Shown piece by piece: positions 794-59,629 of a stretch of 64,000 nucleotides of DNA. The DNA lies in contig JAGIQG010000010.1 in the NCBI GenBank assembly GCA_024679065.1, forward strand, positions 62,868,001-62,932,000. The letters run 5' to 3'. A program made the translations under genes and the position numbers. This stretch comes from Sphyrna mokarran (lineage: Eukaryota). The notes below the pieces were generated by a model. The model was not told where the DNA came from. It searched no databases and saw only the letters and a program-made list of their open reading frames with translations. How positions within the stretch are numbered: position 1 is the stretch's first letter; every line of letters begins with the position of its first letter.

Positions 794-1118
794 GGGCAGT
801 ACAGTGGTTAGCACTACTGCCTCTCAGTGCAAAGACCCAGATTCAATTCTGGCGTTGGGTGTCTGTCTATGTGGAGTTTGCGTGTTCTTCCTGTGTCTGT
901 GTGGGTTTCCTCTGGGTGTTCTGGTTTCTTCCCATACTCCAAAGATGGACAGGTTAGATGATTGACCATGCTAAATTGTCCTTCAGTGTCCCAACATGTA
1001 AGGGGTGGAGTGATGCAGAGAGGGTCTGGGTAAGATGCTCTGTTAGACAGTCAGTGCAGACACAATGGCCCAAATGGCTTCTCTCTGCATTGTAGGGATT
1101 CTGTGATTCTATGATTCT
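794..1118 (+). mobile_element. V-domain SINE (HE1-like), near full length
   Basis: tRNA-like head (cagtggttagcact...attcaattc), V domain (gtggagtttgcgtgttcttcctgtgtctgtgtgggtttcctctgggtg...), CR1-type tail ending gattctatgattcta. Confidence 0.85.
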
Positions 1119-12864: not shown

Positions 12865-13132
12865 GGACAGCAAAGTGGCACAGTGGTTAGCACAGTTCCC
12901 TTACAGCACCAGGGGTCTGGGTTTAATTCCAACCTCAAGTCACTGTGTGCAGTTTGAATGTTCTGCCCGTGTCTGTGTGGGTTTCCTCCGGAATCTCCAA
13001 TCTCCTCCCACATTACAAAGGTGTGCACTTTAGGTTGATTGGCCATGCCAAATTACTCTTTAGTGCCAGGGGGATTAACAGAGTAAATTATTGGATTTAT
13101 AGGGAAAAGGCCTGAGTGGGATTGTTGTAGGC
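12865..13132 (+). mobile_element. V-domain SINE (HE1-like)
   Basis: gtggcacagtggttagcac A-box region, gggtttaattcc B-box region, V domain gtctgtgtgggtttcctccgg; tail truncated. Confidence 0.85.
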
Positions 13133-14139: not shown

Positions 14140-15006
14140 GCTCTTGAAGTGTGTGGCTTGCTAGGCCATTTCAGACAACAGTTAACAATTAACCCTATTA
14201 TTGTAGATCTGGAGTCACATGTAGGCCAGCAGATTTCATTCCCTAAAGGGCATCATCAAACAAGGTGGATTTTTACAACAACCAATGATAGTTTCATTGT
14301 TGCCATCACTAAGACTACTTTTTATTTCCAGATGTTATTAATTGAGCTTAAATTCCACCAGATTTTGTCTAACAAGAGGCATACACGCAATGGGCCGTGA
14401 GAGGGCTGCTCTTGGATTTTTCGAGAGTAGCCTAGTGCTTCACGTCGTTAGTGTATGCTTGACCTGGACAACAAAGAACAAAACAGCATGGGAAACAGGC
14501 CTTTCAGCCCAACGAGCCCGCGCCGCCACCCCGATGTTTCTACCTCTACCTGTGATCCCTGTCTATGTTTATTTGATGGGCAACACGACAGCTCAATGAC
14601 TATTGCTGTGCTATGCAGACACATGGATTTGGTCCTGTGTCTGCAGGAGTTTGGGCATTCTCCCCGGTGCTTGCGTGGGTTTTCTCCAGGTGCTCCGGTT
14701 TCCTCCCACATTCCAAAGCTGTGCTCTTAGGCTGATTGGCAGAACAAATTCTCCCTAATTTGGTTCTAATGCATAGATCTATAAACATAGACAGCGATGA
14801 CAGAGATTATGGGTAAAAGTGGGAACATCAAGGTGGCGGTATGGGCTCATTGGACCAAAGGGCCTGTTTCCCATGCTGTTTTGTTCTTTGTACTATTCTC
14901 TGTATCTTTGTAGTAGATGGCATGATGGGATTTGAATTCATGGCCCCAAAATATTAACTTGAGCTTTGGGAGTAGTATAATGAAATTACCACTAGGCCAC
15001 CATCTC
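14140..15006 (-). mobile_element. Second tRNA-headed SINE-like family, split by the insertion at 14364-14914
   Basis: Body at 14140-14363. Head at 14915-15006 reads gagatggtggcctagtggtaat...gaattcaaatcccatcatgcc on the minus strand. A related copy lies at 49200-49455. Confidence 0.7.
14364..14914 (+). mobile_element. Composite hairpin-headed V-domain SINE derivative, copy 1 (with internal inverted arm)
   Basis: Colinear with 41945-42370. V domain at about 14635-14720; CR1-type tail ending tgttttgttctttgt; possible agat target duplication (14360-14363 and 14915-14918). Confidence 0.85.
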
Positions 15007-18281: not shown

Positions 18282-18592
18282 CATAGGATACTATAGTGCA
18301 GAAGGTGGCCATCTAGCCCATGGATCTGTACTGATCACAATCTCACTCGATTCCTATCCCCATAAACCCATGTATTTACTCTAGCTAGTTCTCCTAACTA
18401 AGGGGTGATTTAACATGGCCAATCAACCTAACCCGCGCATCTTTGGAGTGTGGGAGGAAACTGGAGTACCTGGAGGAAACCCACGCAGGCATGGGGAAAA
18501 CATGCAAACTTCATAGAGACAGTGACTCAAGCTGGGAATTGAACCTGTGTTCCTGGTGTTGTGAGGCAGCAATGCTAACCACTGTGCCGCCC
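18282..18592 (-). mobile_element. V-domain SINE (HE1-like), full length
   Basis: Reverse V domain (tgtgggaggaaactggagtacctggaggaaacccacgcag), B box (gggaattgaacc) and head (gctaaccactgtgccgccc). Confidence 0.88.
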
Positions 18593-19791: not shown

Positions 19792-20760
19792 CCATAAGAC
19801 CATAAGGTATAGGAACAGAATTATGGCTGATTAATTTCTCTTACCTTTTCCCTGTAATCTTTTGATCCCTTTGCCAATTAAGAGCCTATCTATCTCTGTC
19901 TTAAATATAGTCAATCAGCTGGCCCTGTAGCCTTCTGTGGCAATAAATTACATAGCTTCACCATCCTACGACTGAAAAACTTCCTCCTCATCTCAGTTCT
20001 GAAGGGTCATCCTTTTATTCTAAGGCTGTGCCCTAGGATCCTAGTCTCTTCAATTAAGAGAAATATCTTCCCCATGCCCGCTCTATCCAGGCCTTCCAGT
20101 ATTCTATAAGTTTTATCCTTCTAAATTCCATCAGCTCCAAACCCACAATCCTAAAATTCTCCTCATAAATCAAGATTTTCATTCCTGGGATCATTCTCAT
20201 GAACCTCCTCTGGACCCTCTCCAGAGCCAGTACATTCTTCCTTAGATACATGGCCCAAAATTGGTCATAATACTCCAAATGTGGTCTGATCAGAACCTTT
20301 TAAAGCCTCAGTAGTCCATCCCTGTTTTTGTATTCTAGTTCTCTTGAAATGAATGTTAACATTGCATTCGCCTTCCCAACTACAAACTCAATATGCAAGT
20401 TAACCTTAAGAAAATCCTGAACTTGAACTCCTCAGTCATGTTGCGCTTCCGATTTCTCAATCGTCTCCCCACTTTGAAAATGGTTTAGACCTGTTCTTCC
20501 TACCAAAGTGCATAATCTCTTTCCCACATTGTGTTTCATCTGCCATTTCTTTGCTCACTCTTCCACTCTTCTAACCTATCCAATTCCTTCTGCAATCTCT
20601 CTGCCTCCTTGATACTACCTGTCTCTCCACCTGTCTTTGCATTATTGGCAAATTGAGCCACAATGTCCTCAGTTTTATCATCTAGATCATTGATGTATAA
20701 AGTGAAAAGTTATCGTCCCAACATTGACTGCTGTAGAACTCAACTTGTCAAATGCCAACC
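19792..20760 (-). mobile_element. CR1 LINE, 5'-truncated RT region plus 3' UTR
   Basis: ORF 20054-20278 (EYYDQFWAMYLRKNVLALERVQRRFMRMIPGM); LFTLYINDLD near 20680-20710; tail ccataagaccataag. Confidence 0.9.
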
Positions 20761-21317
20761 TATTACCGAAACAGGGGCATCTTTCCCTTTCCTCACAAAT
20801 AATGGATCAACCCCCTACACCAACCCCACATAGGCATGAGGGTGACCTGAACACTCCATTCAGACCTCCCCCATTCCTACTCTGTCTCCACTGAGACCCC
20901 TCCCCCCACTGTGCTCTCTTCCCTATTCAAACCACACATGCAGCACTCCTCCTCATTCAGACCACCCATCCATTCAATCCCTATGAACTCCCCCAATTAT
21001 CCCTTCTCAGACCCCCACTCAGCCTACTTCTCCACTCAATACCCCATTAAACCCCTTTCTCCACTCCTACCATCCCCTTTTCCCCAGGCACACCCACATT
21101 CAAACCTGCTCTCCATTCAAACACGCCATCAACCCTTTCATTTTGGCAATGCCAATGGTGCAATGCCCTGGCACTGTGGCCTGGCACTTTGGGCTCTGAA
21201 GGGGAATTCATAGGTGCTGAATGGGTGGCCTGGGTCACCTTCATGCCTGTGTGAGGTACGGATAGAGGGTGATCTGTTATTTGTGGAGAGGGTGAAGGAT
21301 GCCCCTATTTAGGTTAT

Positions 21318-21521
21318 AGGTTGGCATTTGATGAGTCGAATTCTACAGGGGTCACTGTTGGGACCAAAATTTTTCACTTTATACATCAATGATCTAGATA
21401 AAGGAACTGAGGGCATTGTGGCTCAGTTTTCCAATAATGCAAAGATAAGTAGAAGACAGGTAGTATTGAGGAGGTGGAGAGGCTGCAGAAGGACTTGGAT
21501 AGGCTAGAAGAGTGGGCAAAG
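21318..21521 (+). mobile_element. CR1 RT fragment, part of an inverted duplication
   Basis: QGSLLGPKFFTLYINDLDKGTEGIVAQF; reverse complement of 20549-20760. Confidence 0.85.
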
Positions 21522-27649: not shown

Positions 27650-30600
27650 TATTATGTATTGGGGTTGTTATTGTATTACAGCACTGTCTCTTTTAGAGAA
27701 TATCATGTGCACAGTTTGATTTGATTTATTATTGTCACATGTATTAGCATGCAGTAAAAAATATTGTTTCTTGCATTCTATACAGTTAAAACATACCATT
27801 CATAGAGAAGGAAAGGAGAGAATGTGGAATGTAGCATTACAGTCATAGCTAAGGTGTCGAGAAAGATCAACTTAACTTAAGGTAGGTCCATTCAAAAATC
27901 TAATGGCAATAGAGAAGAAGCTATTTTTTGAGTCAGCGATCTCAAACTTTTCTATCTTTTTCCTGACAGAAGAAAGTGGAAGAGAGAATGTCCGGGGTGT
28001 TTGAGGTTCTCAATTATGCTGGCTACTTTTCTGAGATGCAGGAAGTGTAGTCGGTGTTGATGGATGGGAGGTTGGTTTGTGTGATGGATTGGATTTCATT
28101 CATGATCCTTTCTAGTTTCTGGCGGTCTTAGATCAGGAAACATACCAAGCTGTGATACAACTGCAAAAAAATGTTTTTATGGTGCATCTGTAGAAGTTGG
28201 TGAGAGATGTAGTGGACATGCCAAATTTACTTAGTCTCTTGAGAAGGTAGAGGGTTGGTGGGCTGTTTTCACTGTAGTGTTGGTATGGGGGGAGCAGGGC
28301 AGGTGGGTGATGATCTGGACACCTAAAAACTTGAAGCTCTTGACCATTTCTACTTGGTCGCCATTGACGTAGACAGGGGCATGCCCTCCATAATGCTTGC
28401 TGAAGTCGATGACTATCTGTTTTGTTAACATTGAGAGAAAGATTATTGTTGTTGCACCAGTTCACCAGATTCTCTATCTCTTTTCTGCAGGCCATCAACA
28501 TTACAGTAGTGTCATCAACATCAATGTTGAGGATGATTGTGGAGAAGGTGCTGTTGCCTATCCTTATTGATTGTGATCTATGGGTTAAGGAGTTCAGGGT
28601 ACAGTTGCAGAGTGAGGAGCTGAGTCCCAGGCCATAAGAGTTTGGAAATGAGTTTCATAGCAATAATGGTGTTAAAGGCTGAGCTGTAGTAGGAGTCTAA
28701 CATAGAAGTCCGTTATCTAGGTGTTCCAGTGTTGAGTGTAGGGAGATGGTGTCTGCTGTGGACCTTGTGGATTAGGCAAATTGTGGTGGATGTAGGTAGG
28801 CTGGGAGGCAGGAATTGATTTGTGACATGATTAACTTTTCAAAACACTTTATAGTGATGGATGTCAGAGCCATAGACGATAGTCATTAAGACACACTGGC
28901 TGAGTTTTCTTTGGTAGCAGGATGATGGTCATCATCTTGAAGCAGGTAGGGATCTCAGATTGGTGTAAAGAAAGGTTGAAGATGTCTGTGAATACTTCTG
29001 CCAGCTGATTCAGGCAGGGTCTGAGTACTCATCTGGGAACTCTATCGGGGCCAATCACTTTCCGTGGGTTGATTTTTGAGAAGGCTGCTTTGATGTCAGC
29101 GATGGTAACCTTGGATACAGGTTCGTCCGAGGTTTCTGACCTTTTGCTCAAAATGGATATAGAATGCATTGAGCTTATCAGGGAGGGGTGCATTGGAGCT
29201 GGCGAATTTATCTGCCTTCATCTTGTAGTCTGTTATGGTTTGCTGACCTTGTCATAGTTGGCGGGAGTCTGTGTGGCTAGGCTGGGACTTTAGCTTGGTC
29301 TGGTACTGTCTTCTGGATATTTGATGGATCACCGTACTTCATATTTGACTTTCTTGTATAGGCCAGTGTCACATAATTTGAACGCCTCAGACCAAGACTA
29401 CAGCAGGCAATGGATATCTCTGTTGACTCGTTTCCGGTTGGAAAACATGGATTTGCTTCTTTGGCACACAGTCTTCTATACACTTACTAATAAAGTCAGT
29501 TAGTGAAGTCAATTAGTGTATTCTTTCAGACTGAAAGCAGAATTTTTAAATACTGACCAATCCATTACTCTAAGCAGTCTCGTAGGAGATCATCTGATTC
29601 CTCAGACCACATTTCACAACTTTCTTTGACGAATTTCCTGGTCGATTTTTGCTTGTAAGCAGGAGCACAGCCTTGTGGTCTGATTTACCAAAGTGTAGGT
29701 GGATTGTGAAGCAGTAGGCATTCTTGATATTTGTGTAGCAGTGGTCTAGGACATTTCAGCTTTTGGTGGAACAGGAGATGTGTTGGTGGTATCTTGAGCT
29801 TGGCGTGATTGAAATCATTGATCATAATGAACAAGGCCTCGGGATGTTTCATCGCAACTCTATTTGTGGTGGTGTATATTTTGTCCAGCGTGATCTTCAC
29901 ATCAGCATGGGGTGGAATGTAAACTGCTATCAGGATAACAGAGGTAACTAAAGGTAGTAGGGGCAGCATTTTATCATCAGGTATTCATTGGCTGCTTCAT
30001 GGTTTTGTCCCAGTCTAGATCAAATCTTGTAGAGTTAACAGCTATTCAATAAACCCATCTTGTTGTTTGCACCCAACTCCGGATGCTATAACTTCATGTA
30101 CAATACATAACAAGATAAAATGAATACTGGCAATCAGGAGCAGATGAAATACCTTATGAGCAAAAAATAAAAAAGAAAATCAAAGCCGCATTTTCCAATT
30201 GAGAACTTTGATACTTTGACATAAAACAGGATCAACAGCAGGTCAGCCAATTGTATCTAGCATCAGACTGGCACATGCCAAGAGATTAGGTACTGTCAGT
30301 CAGACAGCCATGCCAATGCTGATATATTGTCAAGATTGCCTTTACCTTCTGCTCAAGAAGCGCCCAGTAGTGTTACTAATATCTTTAACTTTTTGCAGAT
30401 AGAACAAACCCCAGTGACTGCAGTTCAAGTCCAACAATACAGCAGAAATAATCCATTGATGAGGAAGGTACTGAAAATAAAAGGGGGAACTGCAGGAACA
30501 CATCCCGAATTAAACCCATATATTTCCAGGAAACTTGAATATAGGGTCGATCTTGTTATGGGGAATGAGGGTAATAATTCCTCCAAATTTGTGACATCCA

Positions 30601-31972
30601 GGTATAGTTCAAATGAAAGAACTTACGAGAAACCAATTCTGGTGCCTGGACCAGATGCCCAGACTGAGGAAAAAGCAGGACTGTGCCACTCATTTACAGG
30701 GATAAGGAATGCACTAATACTATCTCCATTGCATCCTTGGAATGGCCTAAAATGCTTAGTAATGTCTACACATTGACTTTTCAGGCACATATGAGGAGCA
30801 CATGTTCATGGTTGCACACTCCAATTAACTGGAAGTTGTCTCCTAATGAAGTCAACAACTACGGCACAAACCATTAAAAAACTCGATGAGATTTTTGTCA
30901 GATTTGGAAAACCAGGCCAAACTGTGAGTGATAATGGGCCACAATGGGCCACAGTTCATGGTTCAAGAATTCAGAGACCACTTAAACATGAGTGGTATCC
31001 AATACATAAAATCAGCATCATCCTACCCATCAGTGAATAGATCAGTCGAAAGGATTAAGTCCTTGAAGCATTCACTGAACGCCTCCAAGGACCAAGGTTC
31101 ATTAAATAGCCATCTAACAGTTTCTTGATGATGCATCAGAACACTACACATGCACTCAGAGTTCCCCAACTTTACTATTACTTAACACAAAGCTGAGGAC
31201 TAAATTTAATCTACTTTTATCACAGGAAATGTCCAAGGTAGATGCTTGTTTCAACAAGGCAAGCATGTTTTAGCACACAGCTATACCATTAGTGAAAAGT
31301 AAATTCCTGTATCTGTATTGGCTCAATCTGGCCCTACCTCCTATACAGTACAGTACAGATGAGTTAGTGAGGATCAGTTGTTAGCTACACACATCAACAT
31401 GCCAGTACCATATATGTCAGAATTACTACAGGAGGAACCACCATCTATGTCACCAGATACTGTGACGACACCTTCTGGTCAATCAGCAGAAACTGAGATG
31501 GTTGGAAAATCTGTTGCTGTCAGTAATCTTGCTTCTGTAAAAGAGACTGTTCCACCTTCCAGGAATGAAACATCTTCTGAAGATCCGGAGGACAACCAAA
31601 TTCCTGAAGTGCACAGGGAACCAGTATGGAATAGATGCCTACCCAATAGTCTATATTACTCTACAATGATTATTGTCTGCCCTTGTATTATGTTTCATTG
31701 ATAATGTAAAAGTATTGTGGTTATTTGTTGCTATGAACTCTCAGCAGTAAAGGGGGAAGGATGTTATGTCTTTGGGGTTGTTGCTCTGTTTTGCGCTGTC
31801 CTTTAAGAATCTAACCACATGTGACATCACCAGCTGCTTCATGGGCTTTGCTTTAGTCTAGATCAAACCTGTGTACAGTTAACAGCTATTCAATTAACCT
31901 GCTTTGTTGTTTGTTCCCAATCCCAATTCTATCACTTCATGTTCTTTTACTCTAGGACTGCAGTACGTAACA
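27650..31972 (+). mobile_element. Internally deleted Gypsy/Ty3 LTR retrotransposon
   Basis: 5' LTR is split (27650-27713 and 29988-30112). 3' LTR at 31762-31972 (TGTTATGT...ACGTAACA). PBS-like tggcaatcagga at 30128; polypurine tract agggggaagga at 31751-31761. Remnants HANADILSRLPLP, LHPW and MKSTTTAQTIKKLDEIFVRFGKPGQTVSDNGPQ (integrase). Confidence 0.85.
27714..29985 (-). mobile_element. Rex1/Babar-clade LINE, decayed, inserted in the Gypsy 5' LTR
   Basis: RT remnants EIENLVNWCNNNNLSLNVNKT, VEMVKSFKFLGVQI and LTNFYRCTI; endonuclease remnant VILIAVYIPPHADV...DFNHAKLK; tail aataataaatcaaatcaaa. Confidence 0.88.
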
Positions 31973-41410: not shown

Positions 41411-41944
41411 TCAAAAGAGCTTGTGTAGGAGCTGAAACAAATCAACAAAGCTTGAAGCTGAATGTTGAGTGAAGTTAGGAAAACGATGAAAGTCTTGGGT
41501 CCTAATCCATCCAGAACCTTTCGCTATCTTTCTATGCTTTTTCTCCTTAGATTTGTGATTCCATTTAGAAGAATAGTTTCATAAACACAAATACCATACT
41601 GATGGCTTTCTGTCAAGGTATACGATTCCACTTACCAGTCATAAGGATCACTGATTAGTTCCTACTCTGCCGATGCACACACTCTGACTGAAACAATTTG
41701 AACTCAAAGTACCTGAGTGAAAAACAAAGAGAAGATTTATATTTTAGCCATTGGCCTGACAGGAATATAATCATCTTGCACTCTCAATATATTTAACTCA
41801 GTTTTGAGTAAGTTTAAAAGTGTCCCAAGATATCCAAGGAAGCTTGAGAACTTTTTAAAATCAGTCTGACATGACAGTGTCAATTATAGGGTGTGTGAGG
41901 CAGCTTCTTCTTGTTTTTATCCTACAGGTGCTTTGGTCCACCTT

Positions 41945-42370
41945 GTTGTCTAACAAGGGGCATACACGTGATGGGTCGTGAGATTTTTTTCGAGAGTATC
42001 TTAGTGCTTCACGTTGTTAGTGTACGCTTGACCTGGACTATTTGATGGGCAACACGACAGCTCAGTGACTATCGCTGTGCTGTGCAGATACATGGATTTG
42101 GGCTGTGTCTGTGGGAGTTTGCGCATTCTCCCCGTGCTTGCGTGGGTTTTCTCCGGGTGCTCCGGTTTCCTCCCACATCCCAAAGATGTGCTCTTAGGCT
42201 AATTGGTAAAACAAATTCTCCCTAAATTGTCTCAAATTTGGTTTTTAATCCTTAGATCTATAAACATAGACAGGGATCACGGGTAGAAGTGGGAACATCG
42301 GGGTGGTGGCACGGGCTCGTGGGGCCGAAGGGTCTGTTTCCCGTACTGTTTTGTTCTTTGTTCTTTGTTT
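41945..42370 (+). mobile_element. Composite hairpin-headed V-domain SINE derivative, copy 2 (no internal inverted arm)
   Basis: Colinear with 14364-14914; many CpGs retained, so relatively young; ends ttgttctttgttctttgttt. Confidence 0.85.
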
Positions 42371-58200: not shown

Positions 58201-58444
58201 AGTCCCACCAGCAGCAAGCAAGCAAAGCAAAAGCAAAAGCAAAAGCAGCAGCAATCCCACACACAACAACAAAAACTCTCAACAACAACAACAAAAAGCA
58301 GTGCAAAAAAAACCAAAAAGAGGAACTTTAAAAAAAACAAAAAAAAACTCACTTTTTTTTTGTTATTTGTTATTTGTCTCTGGCAATCAAAACAACAGCA
58401 ACTACAACAAAAAAAAAGACAAGAGAGAGAGAGGGGGAAAAGCC

Positions 58445-58708
58445 ATGGCGACAGCGACGTCCAATCCCTACATGGCCAGCAATAGTATCCTGTCCTCCAA
58501 CTCTATCGTGCACAGTGATTCAGGCGGCATGCAGCAGGCGACCACGTACCGAGATCCCTCGAAAATGGTGCAGAGCGACTTCATGCAGGGGGCCATCGCC
58601 AGCAACGGCCACATGCTCAGCCATGCACACCAGTGGGTGACGGCGCTGCCGCACACCGATGCGGGCTCTCCCTGGTCCTCGGCCATGGCCGGCAGCCCCC
58701 TGGGTCAA

Positions 58709-58743
<35 letters not shown>

Positions 58744-59629
58744 GCAACAGGACGTCAAGCCGTCGGTGCAGGTGGTGGGCCGGGACGAGCTGCACACGGG
58801 CGCCGCTCCCCTGCACCATCACCGCCCGCCTCACCTGCCGCCCCACCAGCCGTCACACGGCGGCCACCCTGCCGCCTGGGGGGCCACCACCACGGCTCAC
58901 CTGCCGTCGATGGGCTCGGCCGTGCAGCCGCTCATCTACTCGCAGCCCGGCTTCACGGTGAACGGCATGCTGAGCCAGGCGGGCGCGCAGAGCCTGCACC
59001 CGGGCTTGAGGGACACGCCGGAGCTGGTGGACCACGGGCAGCAGCACCACAGCCATGAGCACTCGGACGAGGACACGCCGACCTCGGACGACCTGGAGCA
59101 GTTCGCCAAGCAGTTCAAGCAGAGGAGGATCAAGCTGGGCTTCACCCAGGCCGACGTGGGCTTGGCGCTGGGCACCCTGTACGGCAACGTCTTCTCCCAG
59201 ACCACCATCTGCCGCTTCGAGGCGTTGCAGCTGAGCTTCAAGAACATGTGCAAGCTCAAGCCGCTGCTGAACAAGTGGCTGGAAGAGGCCGACTCGTCGA
59301 CCGGCAGCCCCACCAGCATCGACAAGATCGCGGCGCAGGGCAGGAAGCGAAAGAAGCGCACCTCCATCGAGGTGAGCGTCAAAGGAGCTCTGGAAAGCCA
59401 CTTCTTGAAATGTCCCAAGCCCTCGGCGCAGGAGATCGCTTCTCTGGCGGACAGCCTGCAGTTAGAGAAAGAAGTGGTCCGAGTTTGGTTCTGCAATCGG
59501 AGGCAGAAGGAGAAACGCATGACGCCGCCGGGAGGGGTGCAGCAGACGGACGATGTGTACTCACAGGTCGGCAATGTAAACGCCGATACACCACCCTCTC
59601 ACCACGGACTACAAACCGCCGTACAGTGA
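58445..59629 (+). CDS. POU3F3: POU domain class 3 transcription factor 3 (Brn1), single coding exon, 394 aa
   Basis: ATG in strong Kozak context (gccATGg) at 58445. Has POU-specific domain ([29 protein letters not shown]...), class III linker ([16 protein letters not shown]) and homeodomain ([11 protein letters not shown]). N-terminus MATATSNPY...[32 protein letters not shown] and C-terminus DDVYSQVG...ADTPP.HHGLQT.VQ match POU3F3 rather than POU3F1/2/4. No introns. Confidence 0.95.
58706..58750 (+). repeat. CAG/CAA repeat encoding Gln15
   Basis: CAA (CAG)5 CAA (CAG)6 CAA CAG, in frame within the CDS. Confidence 0.95.

What the first reader, a model, noticed from the sequence alone, without database searches (positions are those of the whole stretch)
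14364..14914. Composite retroelement with an unrecognised structured-RNA head replacing the Pol III promoter
Seen: two copies 27.6 kb apart (14364-14914 and 41945-42370) share the same 5' start (ttgtctaacaag) and module order. The modules are a ~105-nt head, then a decayed HE1-type tRNA head (gggcaacacgacagctcagtgactatcgctg) with no GTTCRANNC B box, then the V domain, then a CR1-type tail with TTCTTTG repeats. The head folds into one long nested hairpin: ttgtcta 14365/tggacaa 14465, aggcatacac 14377/gtgtatgctt 14451, cgtgag/ttcacg, and ggctgctcttg 14404/cgagagtagcc 14422. At least five pairs are G-U on the + strand and would be A-C mismatches on the minus strand. Known: SINE heads normally derive from tRNA, 7SL, 5S or snRNA; by eye this head matches none that I know. 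Inference: a master RNA that lost its internal promoter yet still retroposed, with a structure maintained at the RNA level. It could be a domesticated ncRNA, a pre-miRNA-like hairpin, or a ribozyme/processing signal that releases the unit from Pol II transcripts.
Basis: partly seen in the sequence, partly recalled or inferred. Interest (0 to 1): 0.72.

Follow-up and report, generated by a model that had tools for sequence, protein, structure and literature searches.

The report
Shark LINE tail keeps folded RNA
The two repeats are shortened copies of a very abundant shark-type jumping gene (a CR1 LINE); the supposed new 'head' lies inside that gene's untranslated end, next to a captured piece of a parasitic short repeat, and its predicted fold and the captured piece appear to be kept by selection, which would offer a way to test what such conserved pieces do.

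Summary
The two copies, their modules and the hairpin are real, but the 'head' is not a 5' end. Both are 5'-truncated copies of a CR1 LINE (ORF1 esterase, ORF2 endonuclease + RT; at least 22,995 copies). The hairpin belongs to a ~135-nt predicted three-way junction in the LINE's 3' UTR, followed by a promoter-less V-SINE front and the LINE's own tail. Three families (A, B, C) share this module and form one clade. Their sister D has a like tail and no module: one capture. The fold survives ~30% divergence better than random change (three two-sided changes; one pairwise test not significant). V domain identity is 90-92% against 62-75% at four-fold sites. No Rfam match; no sign of cleavage, Drosha release or splicing in the copies. 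Likely role: a cis-acting RNA element helping LINE RNA (untested). The scan noted this captured V-SINE before on other DNA. New variant; interest 0.48.

The parts
14365..14894 (+). Copy 1: 5'-truncated CR1 family A (older subfamily A1), 3' UTR only
14365..14469 (+).
14470..14572 (-). Antisense 103-nt insertion of the family's own 3' tail (a second, shorter truncated copy nested in copy 1)
   Evidence: 88% to copy 2's tail
14578..14637 (+). Copy 1: decayed tRNA-like V-SINE head; A box altered, B-box region deleted
14638..14757 (+). Copy 1: V domain and adjoining SINE body
14835..14891 (+). Copy 1: LINE 3' tail ending in TTCTTTG-type repeats
41910..42370 (+). Copy 2: 5'-truncated CR1 family A (subfamily A2), 3' UTR only
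41910..41929 (+). Copy 2: pyrimidine tract and CAG|GT; CAGGU is predicted to form the outermost helix; no spliced copies seen
41925..42044 (+). Copy 2: three-way junction from end to end, with a 14-nt deletion in the apical stem
42047..42105 (+). Copy 2: decayed tRNA-like head
42106..42224 (+). Copy 2: V domain and adjoining SINE body
42305..42370 (+). Copy 2: LINE 3' tail with (TTCTTTG)n

Best explanation
The two elements are 5'-truncated copies of an abundant CR1 LINE, and the 'head' is the middle of that LINE's 3' UTR: a predicted three-way-junction RNA beside a captured, promoter-less V-SINE front, together likely kept by selection as a cis-acting element that helps the LINE's own RNA get copied. 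Shown: LINE anatomy, scattered 5' ends, one module-bearing clade (A, B, C) with a module-free sister (D) that has a like tail, loss of the Pol III boxes, slow change of the tRNA-like part, V domain and tail. Inferred: the module entered once between ORF2 stop and tail (template switch, or insertion into a master copy); the RNA is made from the LINE's own 5' promoter and copied in cis by ORF2 from the tail; early stops of reverse transcription leave SINE-like stubs. Predicted: the fold. Untested: that the module raises RNA stability or RNP assembly (about 0.4 for that specific role).
For: Upstream continuity into ORF2. 14 of 16 copies picked only by the endonuclease region carry hairpin, tRNA-like part and V. 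Pfam RVT_1, Exo_endo_phos, Lipase_GDSL_2. 22,995 exact hits for a 32-mer, control 0. Tree of 53 ORF2 ends: A+B+C 99/99, D sister 100/100. 5 of 5 subfamily majorities fold alone to the same junction, sense z -2.4 to -4.3, antisense -1.1 to -3.2. Folding energy beyond random placement of the same substitutions: p 0.003, 0.003, 0.017, 0.050 in 4 of 4 tests. Pair retention p <= 0.032 in 5 of 6 A-B and B-C tests; three two-sided changes between A and B (one search agrees on 10 natural copies). Identity between families: V 0.90-0.92, tRNA-like 0.84-0.94, tail 0.95-1.0, linker 0.51-0.55; four-fold sites 0.62-0.75. Family B copies with open ORF2 frames of 1009 and 1005 codons are followed directly by the module.
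Against: Only three independent lineages, and nearly all covariation rests on family B. C->B pair retention is not significant (p 0.22), and none of the 4 close comparisons is. The junction's sequence identity between A and B (0.69-0.70) equals neutral sites. The younger A subfamilies carry an uncompensated C-U mismatch, and B breaks 9 of the 50 consensus pairs as aligned. The family C ORF2 majority has 5 stops in its best frame, so its four-fold figures are rough. The null models ignore CpG context. Module-free CR1 families are also abundant, so the module is not required. No raw RNA reads could be laid (searches gave contigs only).
Confidence: 0.8

Rival explanations
1. Passenger: the module is a hitch-hiker in the LINE 3' UTR. 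The hairpin is a relic (for example an old inverted repeat), and the SINE part looks conserved because 3' ends are swapped between families.
For: Junction identity A-B equals neutral sites. A mosaic copy exists (L187 changes from C-type to A-type inside the hairpin). Module-free families thrive.
Against: The conserved tRNA-like + V block is flanked on both sides by diverged sequence (junction 0.69-0.89, linker 0.51-0.55), so swapping needs double crossovers. A, B and C share changes that the free V-SINEs lack. B keeps its folding energy beyond chance.
Confidence: 0.12
2. One reading: a separate short master RNA begins at the hairpin, released by self-cleavage or Drosha, and retroposes as a SINE.
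For: Strong + strand fold in copy 1. 2 of the 29 other top matches to the head appear to start at or within 3 nt of the same place.
Against: Of 85 unbiased family-A copies without deletions, 1 starts at +95..+110 (0.96 expected); 0 of 68 family-B copies in the matching window. Genome-wide: 43 of 19,028 have three foreign bases in front, 29 of them the pattern of an internal 3-nt deletion variant, leaving 14 against 18 and 7 at control positions. No Rfam ribozyme or miRNA match.
Confidence: 0.03
3. The module is a captured host exon or a splice-controlled unit: the pyrimidine tract and CAG|GT act as a 3' splice site that yields a short spliced RNA.
For: A pyrimidine tract and CAGGT stand before the junction in A, B and C.
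Against: 0 of 13 internally deleted A copies rejoin at the CAG|G, nor does the 1 deleted B copy. CAGGU is explained as a helix with AU(C/U)UG, 100% paired. The tract itself is only 0.42-0.60 identical between families.
Confidence: 0.05

Closest known systems
HE1 V-SINE / HER1 LINE pair of sharks and rays (table row in PMC3747384, passages seen; named in PMC4824008, passages; originals not read, not held)
   Same: tRNA-like head followed by the V domain; a CR1-type partner with a shared kind of tail. Free V-SINEs with intact A and B boxes are common in this genome (47 copies in the fetched DNA).
   Different: Here the SINE front sits inside an autonomous LINE, has no Pol III boxes, follows a ~135-nt junction absent from the free SINE, and ends in a tail closer to LINE family D than to the free SINE. 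The names HE1/HER1 were not tested against reference sequences.
Canonical vertebrate CR1 LINEs (families D, E, F in this genome; CR1 label from anatomy and recall)
   Same: ORF1 esterase, ORF2 endonuclease + RT, heavy 5' truncation, conserved tail with short repeats.
   Different: Their 3' UTRs are about 60-100 nt; families A, B, C carry 450-600 nt with the module.
MER6/MER6A (Tc1/Mariner MITE holding an Ac1-like V-SINE; PMC6887750, passages seen)
   Same: A V-SINE that lost its head's function and spread inside another mobile element.
   Different: MER6 is a non-autonomous DNA transposon with no RNA step. Here the host element copies through RNA, so selection on V can act on the RNA, and slow change of V was measured.
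SINEs with LINE-derived middles (Kojima 2018, PMC5786205, passages seen)
   Same: Modules move between LINEs and SINEs.
   Different: The direction is reversed (SINE into LINE). The passages seen say SINE bodies rarely resemble anything but SINEs and that the origin of the conserved bodies is unknown.

Membership tests
tRNA-derived V-SINE (HE1 type) | Small-RNA-derived head at a fixed 5' end | tested here: not met
   5' ends scatter; upstream is ORF2
tRNA-derived V-SINE (HE1 type) | Internal Pol III A and B boxes | tested here: not met
   None in the A1, A2, B or C majorities; both present in the free SINE majority (motifs recalled)
tRNA-derived V-SINE (HE1 type) | V central domain | tested here: met
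   Aligns with the body of the genome's free SINEs; the label V is recalled, no reference sequence on hand
tRNA-derived V-SINE (HE1 type) | Short, non-coding master element | tested here: not met
   Master about 4.6 kb with two ORFs
CR1-clade LINE | ORF2 with AP endonuclease and reverse transcriptase | tested here: met
   PF03372/PF14529 and PF00078; open frames of 1009 and 1005 codons in family B
CR1-clade LINE | ORF1 with SGNH esterase domain | tested here: met
   PF13472, E 4.8e-9
CR1-clade LINE | 5'-truncation ladder and a fixed 3' end with short repeats | tested here: met
   family B ends in an A run
CR1-clade LINE | RT phylogeny with reference CR1, L2 and Rex elements | not testable with these tools
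   No Repbase/Dfam or reference LINE set held; the tree holds only this genome's families
Known self-cleaving ribozymes or other Rfam RNAs | Match to a covariance model | tested here: not met
   0 at gathering score in the window; best E 0.55-2.8 in four E-value scans of families A, B, C
Known self-cleaving ribozymes or other Rfam RNAs | Site-specific cleavage of the RNA | not testable with these tools
   Indirect only: no pile-up of 5' ends
pre-miRNA | Precise ~22-nt read stacks on both arms | not testable with these tools
   No small-RNA raw reads among the 20 runs listed

The most novel reading that the evidence does not exclude
One shark CR1 clade built a new ~300-nt structured RNA device in its 3' UTR: a three-way junction of no known family joined to a domesticated V-SINE whose tRNA head was refolded into new hairpins. 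The device raises the fitness of the LINE RNA in cis, so the V domain works at the RNA level independently of Pol III. That would explain why V has been kept in SINEs across animals, and an intact family-B element makes it assayable.
Probability: 0.35. Interest if true: 0.75.

Novelty: new variant of a known kind. Interest (0 to 1): 0.48.

Why it matters
The role of the conserved SINE central domains is stated to be unknown; RNA stability during retrotransposition is one untested proposal (PMC4824008, passages). An autonomous LINE that kept V at about 90% while neutral sites fell to 62-75%, with the Pol III boxes gone, separates V from Pol III transcription. Family B is young and has open ORF2 frames, and sister family D is a natural module-free control, so a plain reporter assay could test V and the junction. 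It also warns that truncated copies of such LINEs mimic new SINE families.

Tried and rejected
1) Rfam: five scans, no match. Likenesses to Y RNA ends, miR-302/430 seeds, C/D boxes and HDV or hammerhead cores were recalled leads only and found no support there. 2) Frequent 5' inversions (first impression): withdrawn. Most opposite-strand hits were below the family's identity level or nested insertions; at most 3 of 98 A copies and 0 of 69 B copies qualify. 3) Truncations clustering just upstream of the fold: 10 seen against 3.6 expected in A (bin chosen after seeing the data, p 0.003), not repeated in B (1 against 3.5); rejected as structure-driven. A deficit of 5' ends inside the fold (3 vs 7.6 in A; 2 vs 6.8 in B) is weak, since B has few ends anywhere near the 3' end. 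4) Splicing at CAG|GT: no deleted copy rejoins there. 5) A free-standing source of the hairpin: none in 774 kb of fetched DNA; a single host copy cannot be found among some 20,000 LINE copies with top-40 searches. 7) Literature: five searches listed no paper title or abstract describing a V domain inside a LINE 3' UTR; Repbase, Dfam and the Ogiwara papers could not be seen, and no supplements were read, so prior annotation as a consensus is not excluded.

Full report
1. The observation. Both copies are in the window with the stated order of modules. Copy 1's first 107 nt fold at -47.7 kcal/mol, z -5.5 on the + strand and -2.65 on the - strand; copy 2 folds at z -1.0 because it lacks 14 nt of the apical stem. 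The shared start is not real: copy 2 matches the family from 41910. Copy 1 holds an antisense 103-nt copy of its own tail at 14470-14572. Rfam finds nothing in the window or in E-value scans of three related families.

2. What it is. The head has 2,334 first-look candidates in the genome; 40 were scored and 30 fetched. In 27 of the 30, homology runs on 30 to more than 1,500 nt upstream, in a ladder of 5' ends, into a reverse transcriptase frame. Of 16 copies picked only by the endonuclease region, 14 carry hairpin, tRNA-like part and V about 2.3 kb downstream. The longest shared stretch is about 4.6 kb, with ORF1 (PF13472), ORF2 (PF03372, PF00078) and a 531-nt 3' UTR. A 32-mer of the UTR has 22,995 exact hits, control 0. 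The window's copies are truncated members of this family A.

3. No common 5' end. I fetched the first 100 exact hits on contig C1 and dropped 2 duplicates. Genome-wide, 19,028 copies carry the start motif. Only 43 have three foreign bases in front, and 29 of these show the pattern of an internal 3-nt deletion variant (variant seen). That leaves 14, against 18 and 7 at positions 6 nt upstream and 4 nt downstream. At most about 0.8% of copies start there after correcting for chance matches. Family B gave 0 of 68 in the matching window (70 fetched, 1 duplicate and 1 deleted copy dropped). Release by a ribozyme or Drosha followed by retroposition is therefore not supported.

4. Relatives. Two more families carry the same module: B, young, with open ORF2 frames of 1009 and 1005 codons directly before the module, and C, older. 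Other families have short UTRs with neither hairpin nor V. In a tree of 53 ORF2 3' ends (80 collected; rows covering under 170 of 205 codons, duplicates and 12 surplus B rows left out), A+B+C form a clade (99/99) whose sister D (100/100) has a like tail and no module (midpoint root). One gain between stop codon and tail is the simplest reading (inference). The captured piece aligns with the front of the genome's free V-SINE, whose majority (47 copies) has A and B boxes; the module has neither, and the B-box region is deleted. Contigs from runs of five other coded organisms (B, D, E, H, I) cover part or all of the family-B hairpin, and one 761-nt contig of organism G spans ORF2 end to tail, with the listed differences densest in the linker.

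5. Is the fold kept? Each of 5 subfamily majorities folds alone into the same three-way junction: a basal helix, a small side hairpin and a long arm; sense z -2.4 to -4.3, antisense -1.1 to -3.2. The consensus has 50 pairs, 9-12 of them G-U. A and B differ at about 30% of sites, as do four-fold sites (0.69-0.75), so sequence alone shows no constraint. Placing the same substitutions at random gives weaker folds in 4 of 4 tests (p 0.003-0.050). Pair retention beats the null in 5 of 6 A-B and B-C tests (p 0.0003-0.032) but not C->B (0.22), nor in 4 close comparisons; three pairs change on both sides between A and B. On 10 natural copies, 95% of cells pair, 5 pairs change on both sides (3 of 500 shuffles as high; two of the five come from single-copy decay), and slid controls pair at 38-46%. 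With three lineages this is moderate evidence. The tRNA-like part (0.84-0.94), V (0.90-0.92) and tail (0.95-1.0) are far better kept than the linker (0.51-0.55) or four-fold sites (0.62-0.75; C values rough).

6. How it likely works. From established knowledge of stringent-type LINEs (PMC3747384, passages), ORF2 protein recognises the 3' tail and copies the RNA from there; early stops give short copies. The RNA is inferred to come from the LINE's own 5' promoter, so loss of the Pol III boxes costs nothing. Slow change of the SINE-derived block and retention of the fold suggest a cis-acting benefit, most simply RNA stability or RNP assembly; this step is untested. The origin of the junction was not found.

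7. Rivals and dead ends. Passenger plus 3'-end swapping (0.12), separate SINE master (0.03) and splice-acceptor use (0.05; 0 of 13 deletions rejoin at CAG|G) are weighed in their sections. My early impression of many inversions was wrong (at most 3 of 98, 0 of 69), and a truncation cluster upstream of the fold in A did not repeat in B.

8. Comparison with what is known. It works like an ordinary CR1 LINE and meets the tested CR1 features; it fails the SINE tests for head, promoter and size. The nearest precedent for a V-SINE carried by another element is the DNA transposon MER6 (PMC6887750, passages). PMC4824008 (passages) calls the role of central domains unknown; PMC5786205 (passages) says such bodies rarely resemble anything but SINEs. 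PMC5499810 and PMC1513397 (passages) describe other shark repeats, not this one. Five searches listed no description of this module; Repbase, Dfam, the original HE1 papers and supplements were not seen. The scan's own notes report the same captured V-SINE on other DNA of this genome; my reading was fixed before I opened them, and they are not independent support. One note's claim that such cores were reported never to occur in LINEs was not found in the passages I read.

9. Verdict. Observation partly confirmed; interpretation partly supported. New variant of a known kind; interest 0.48. The boldest reading, a functional RNA device that makes the V domain assayable apart from Pol III, has probability about 0.35 and interest 0.75.

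Noticed in passing
window 58442-59629 (+): Intronless open frame with POU and homeodomain (PF00157 E 8.7e-39, PF00046), by its start a class III POU (POU3F/Brn-type) gene (class recalled); the two LINE copies lie about 44 and 16 kb upstream.
   Followed up: partly
window 18337-18590 (-), 12877-13125 (+), 794-976 (+): Three old free V-SINE copies with a tRNA-like head and a different tail.
   Followed up: yes
L074-L143, L206-L235 against L240-L309: Internal deletions of about 65-1700 nt in 13 of 98 family-A copies but 1 of 69 family-B copies; cause not found.
   Followed up: partly
window 14470-14572; L129, L130, L074 and others: CR1 copies often sit inside other CR1 copies (11 of 98 A copies scored as interrupted, one of them an assembly gap).
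   Followed up: partly
L144-L168, L236-L237: Family B is young (top copies 99-100% alike over 146 nt, 5,827 exact hits of a 28-mer) and ends in an A run, unlike A, C and D, which end in TTCTTTG repeats.
   Followed up: partly
tRNA-like part of the module (for example window 42047-42115): The decayed head is predicted to form two new hairpins; in B one gains two G-C pairs from G-U. Not tested statistically.
   Followed up: partly
L087/L108, L086/L109, L089/L090: Identical or near-identical neighbouring copies with shared flanks on contig C1 point to local segmental duplications.
   Followed up: no
window 20563-20867 / 21212-21515: Inverted pair of about 300 nt, 82% alike, 345 nt apart; not examined.
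   Followed up: no
window 28133-28654 (-), 30261-30776 (+): Decayed open frames resembling an L2-type RT end and an LTR-retrotransposon integrase region by eye; not tested.
   Followed up: no
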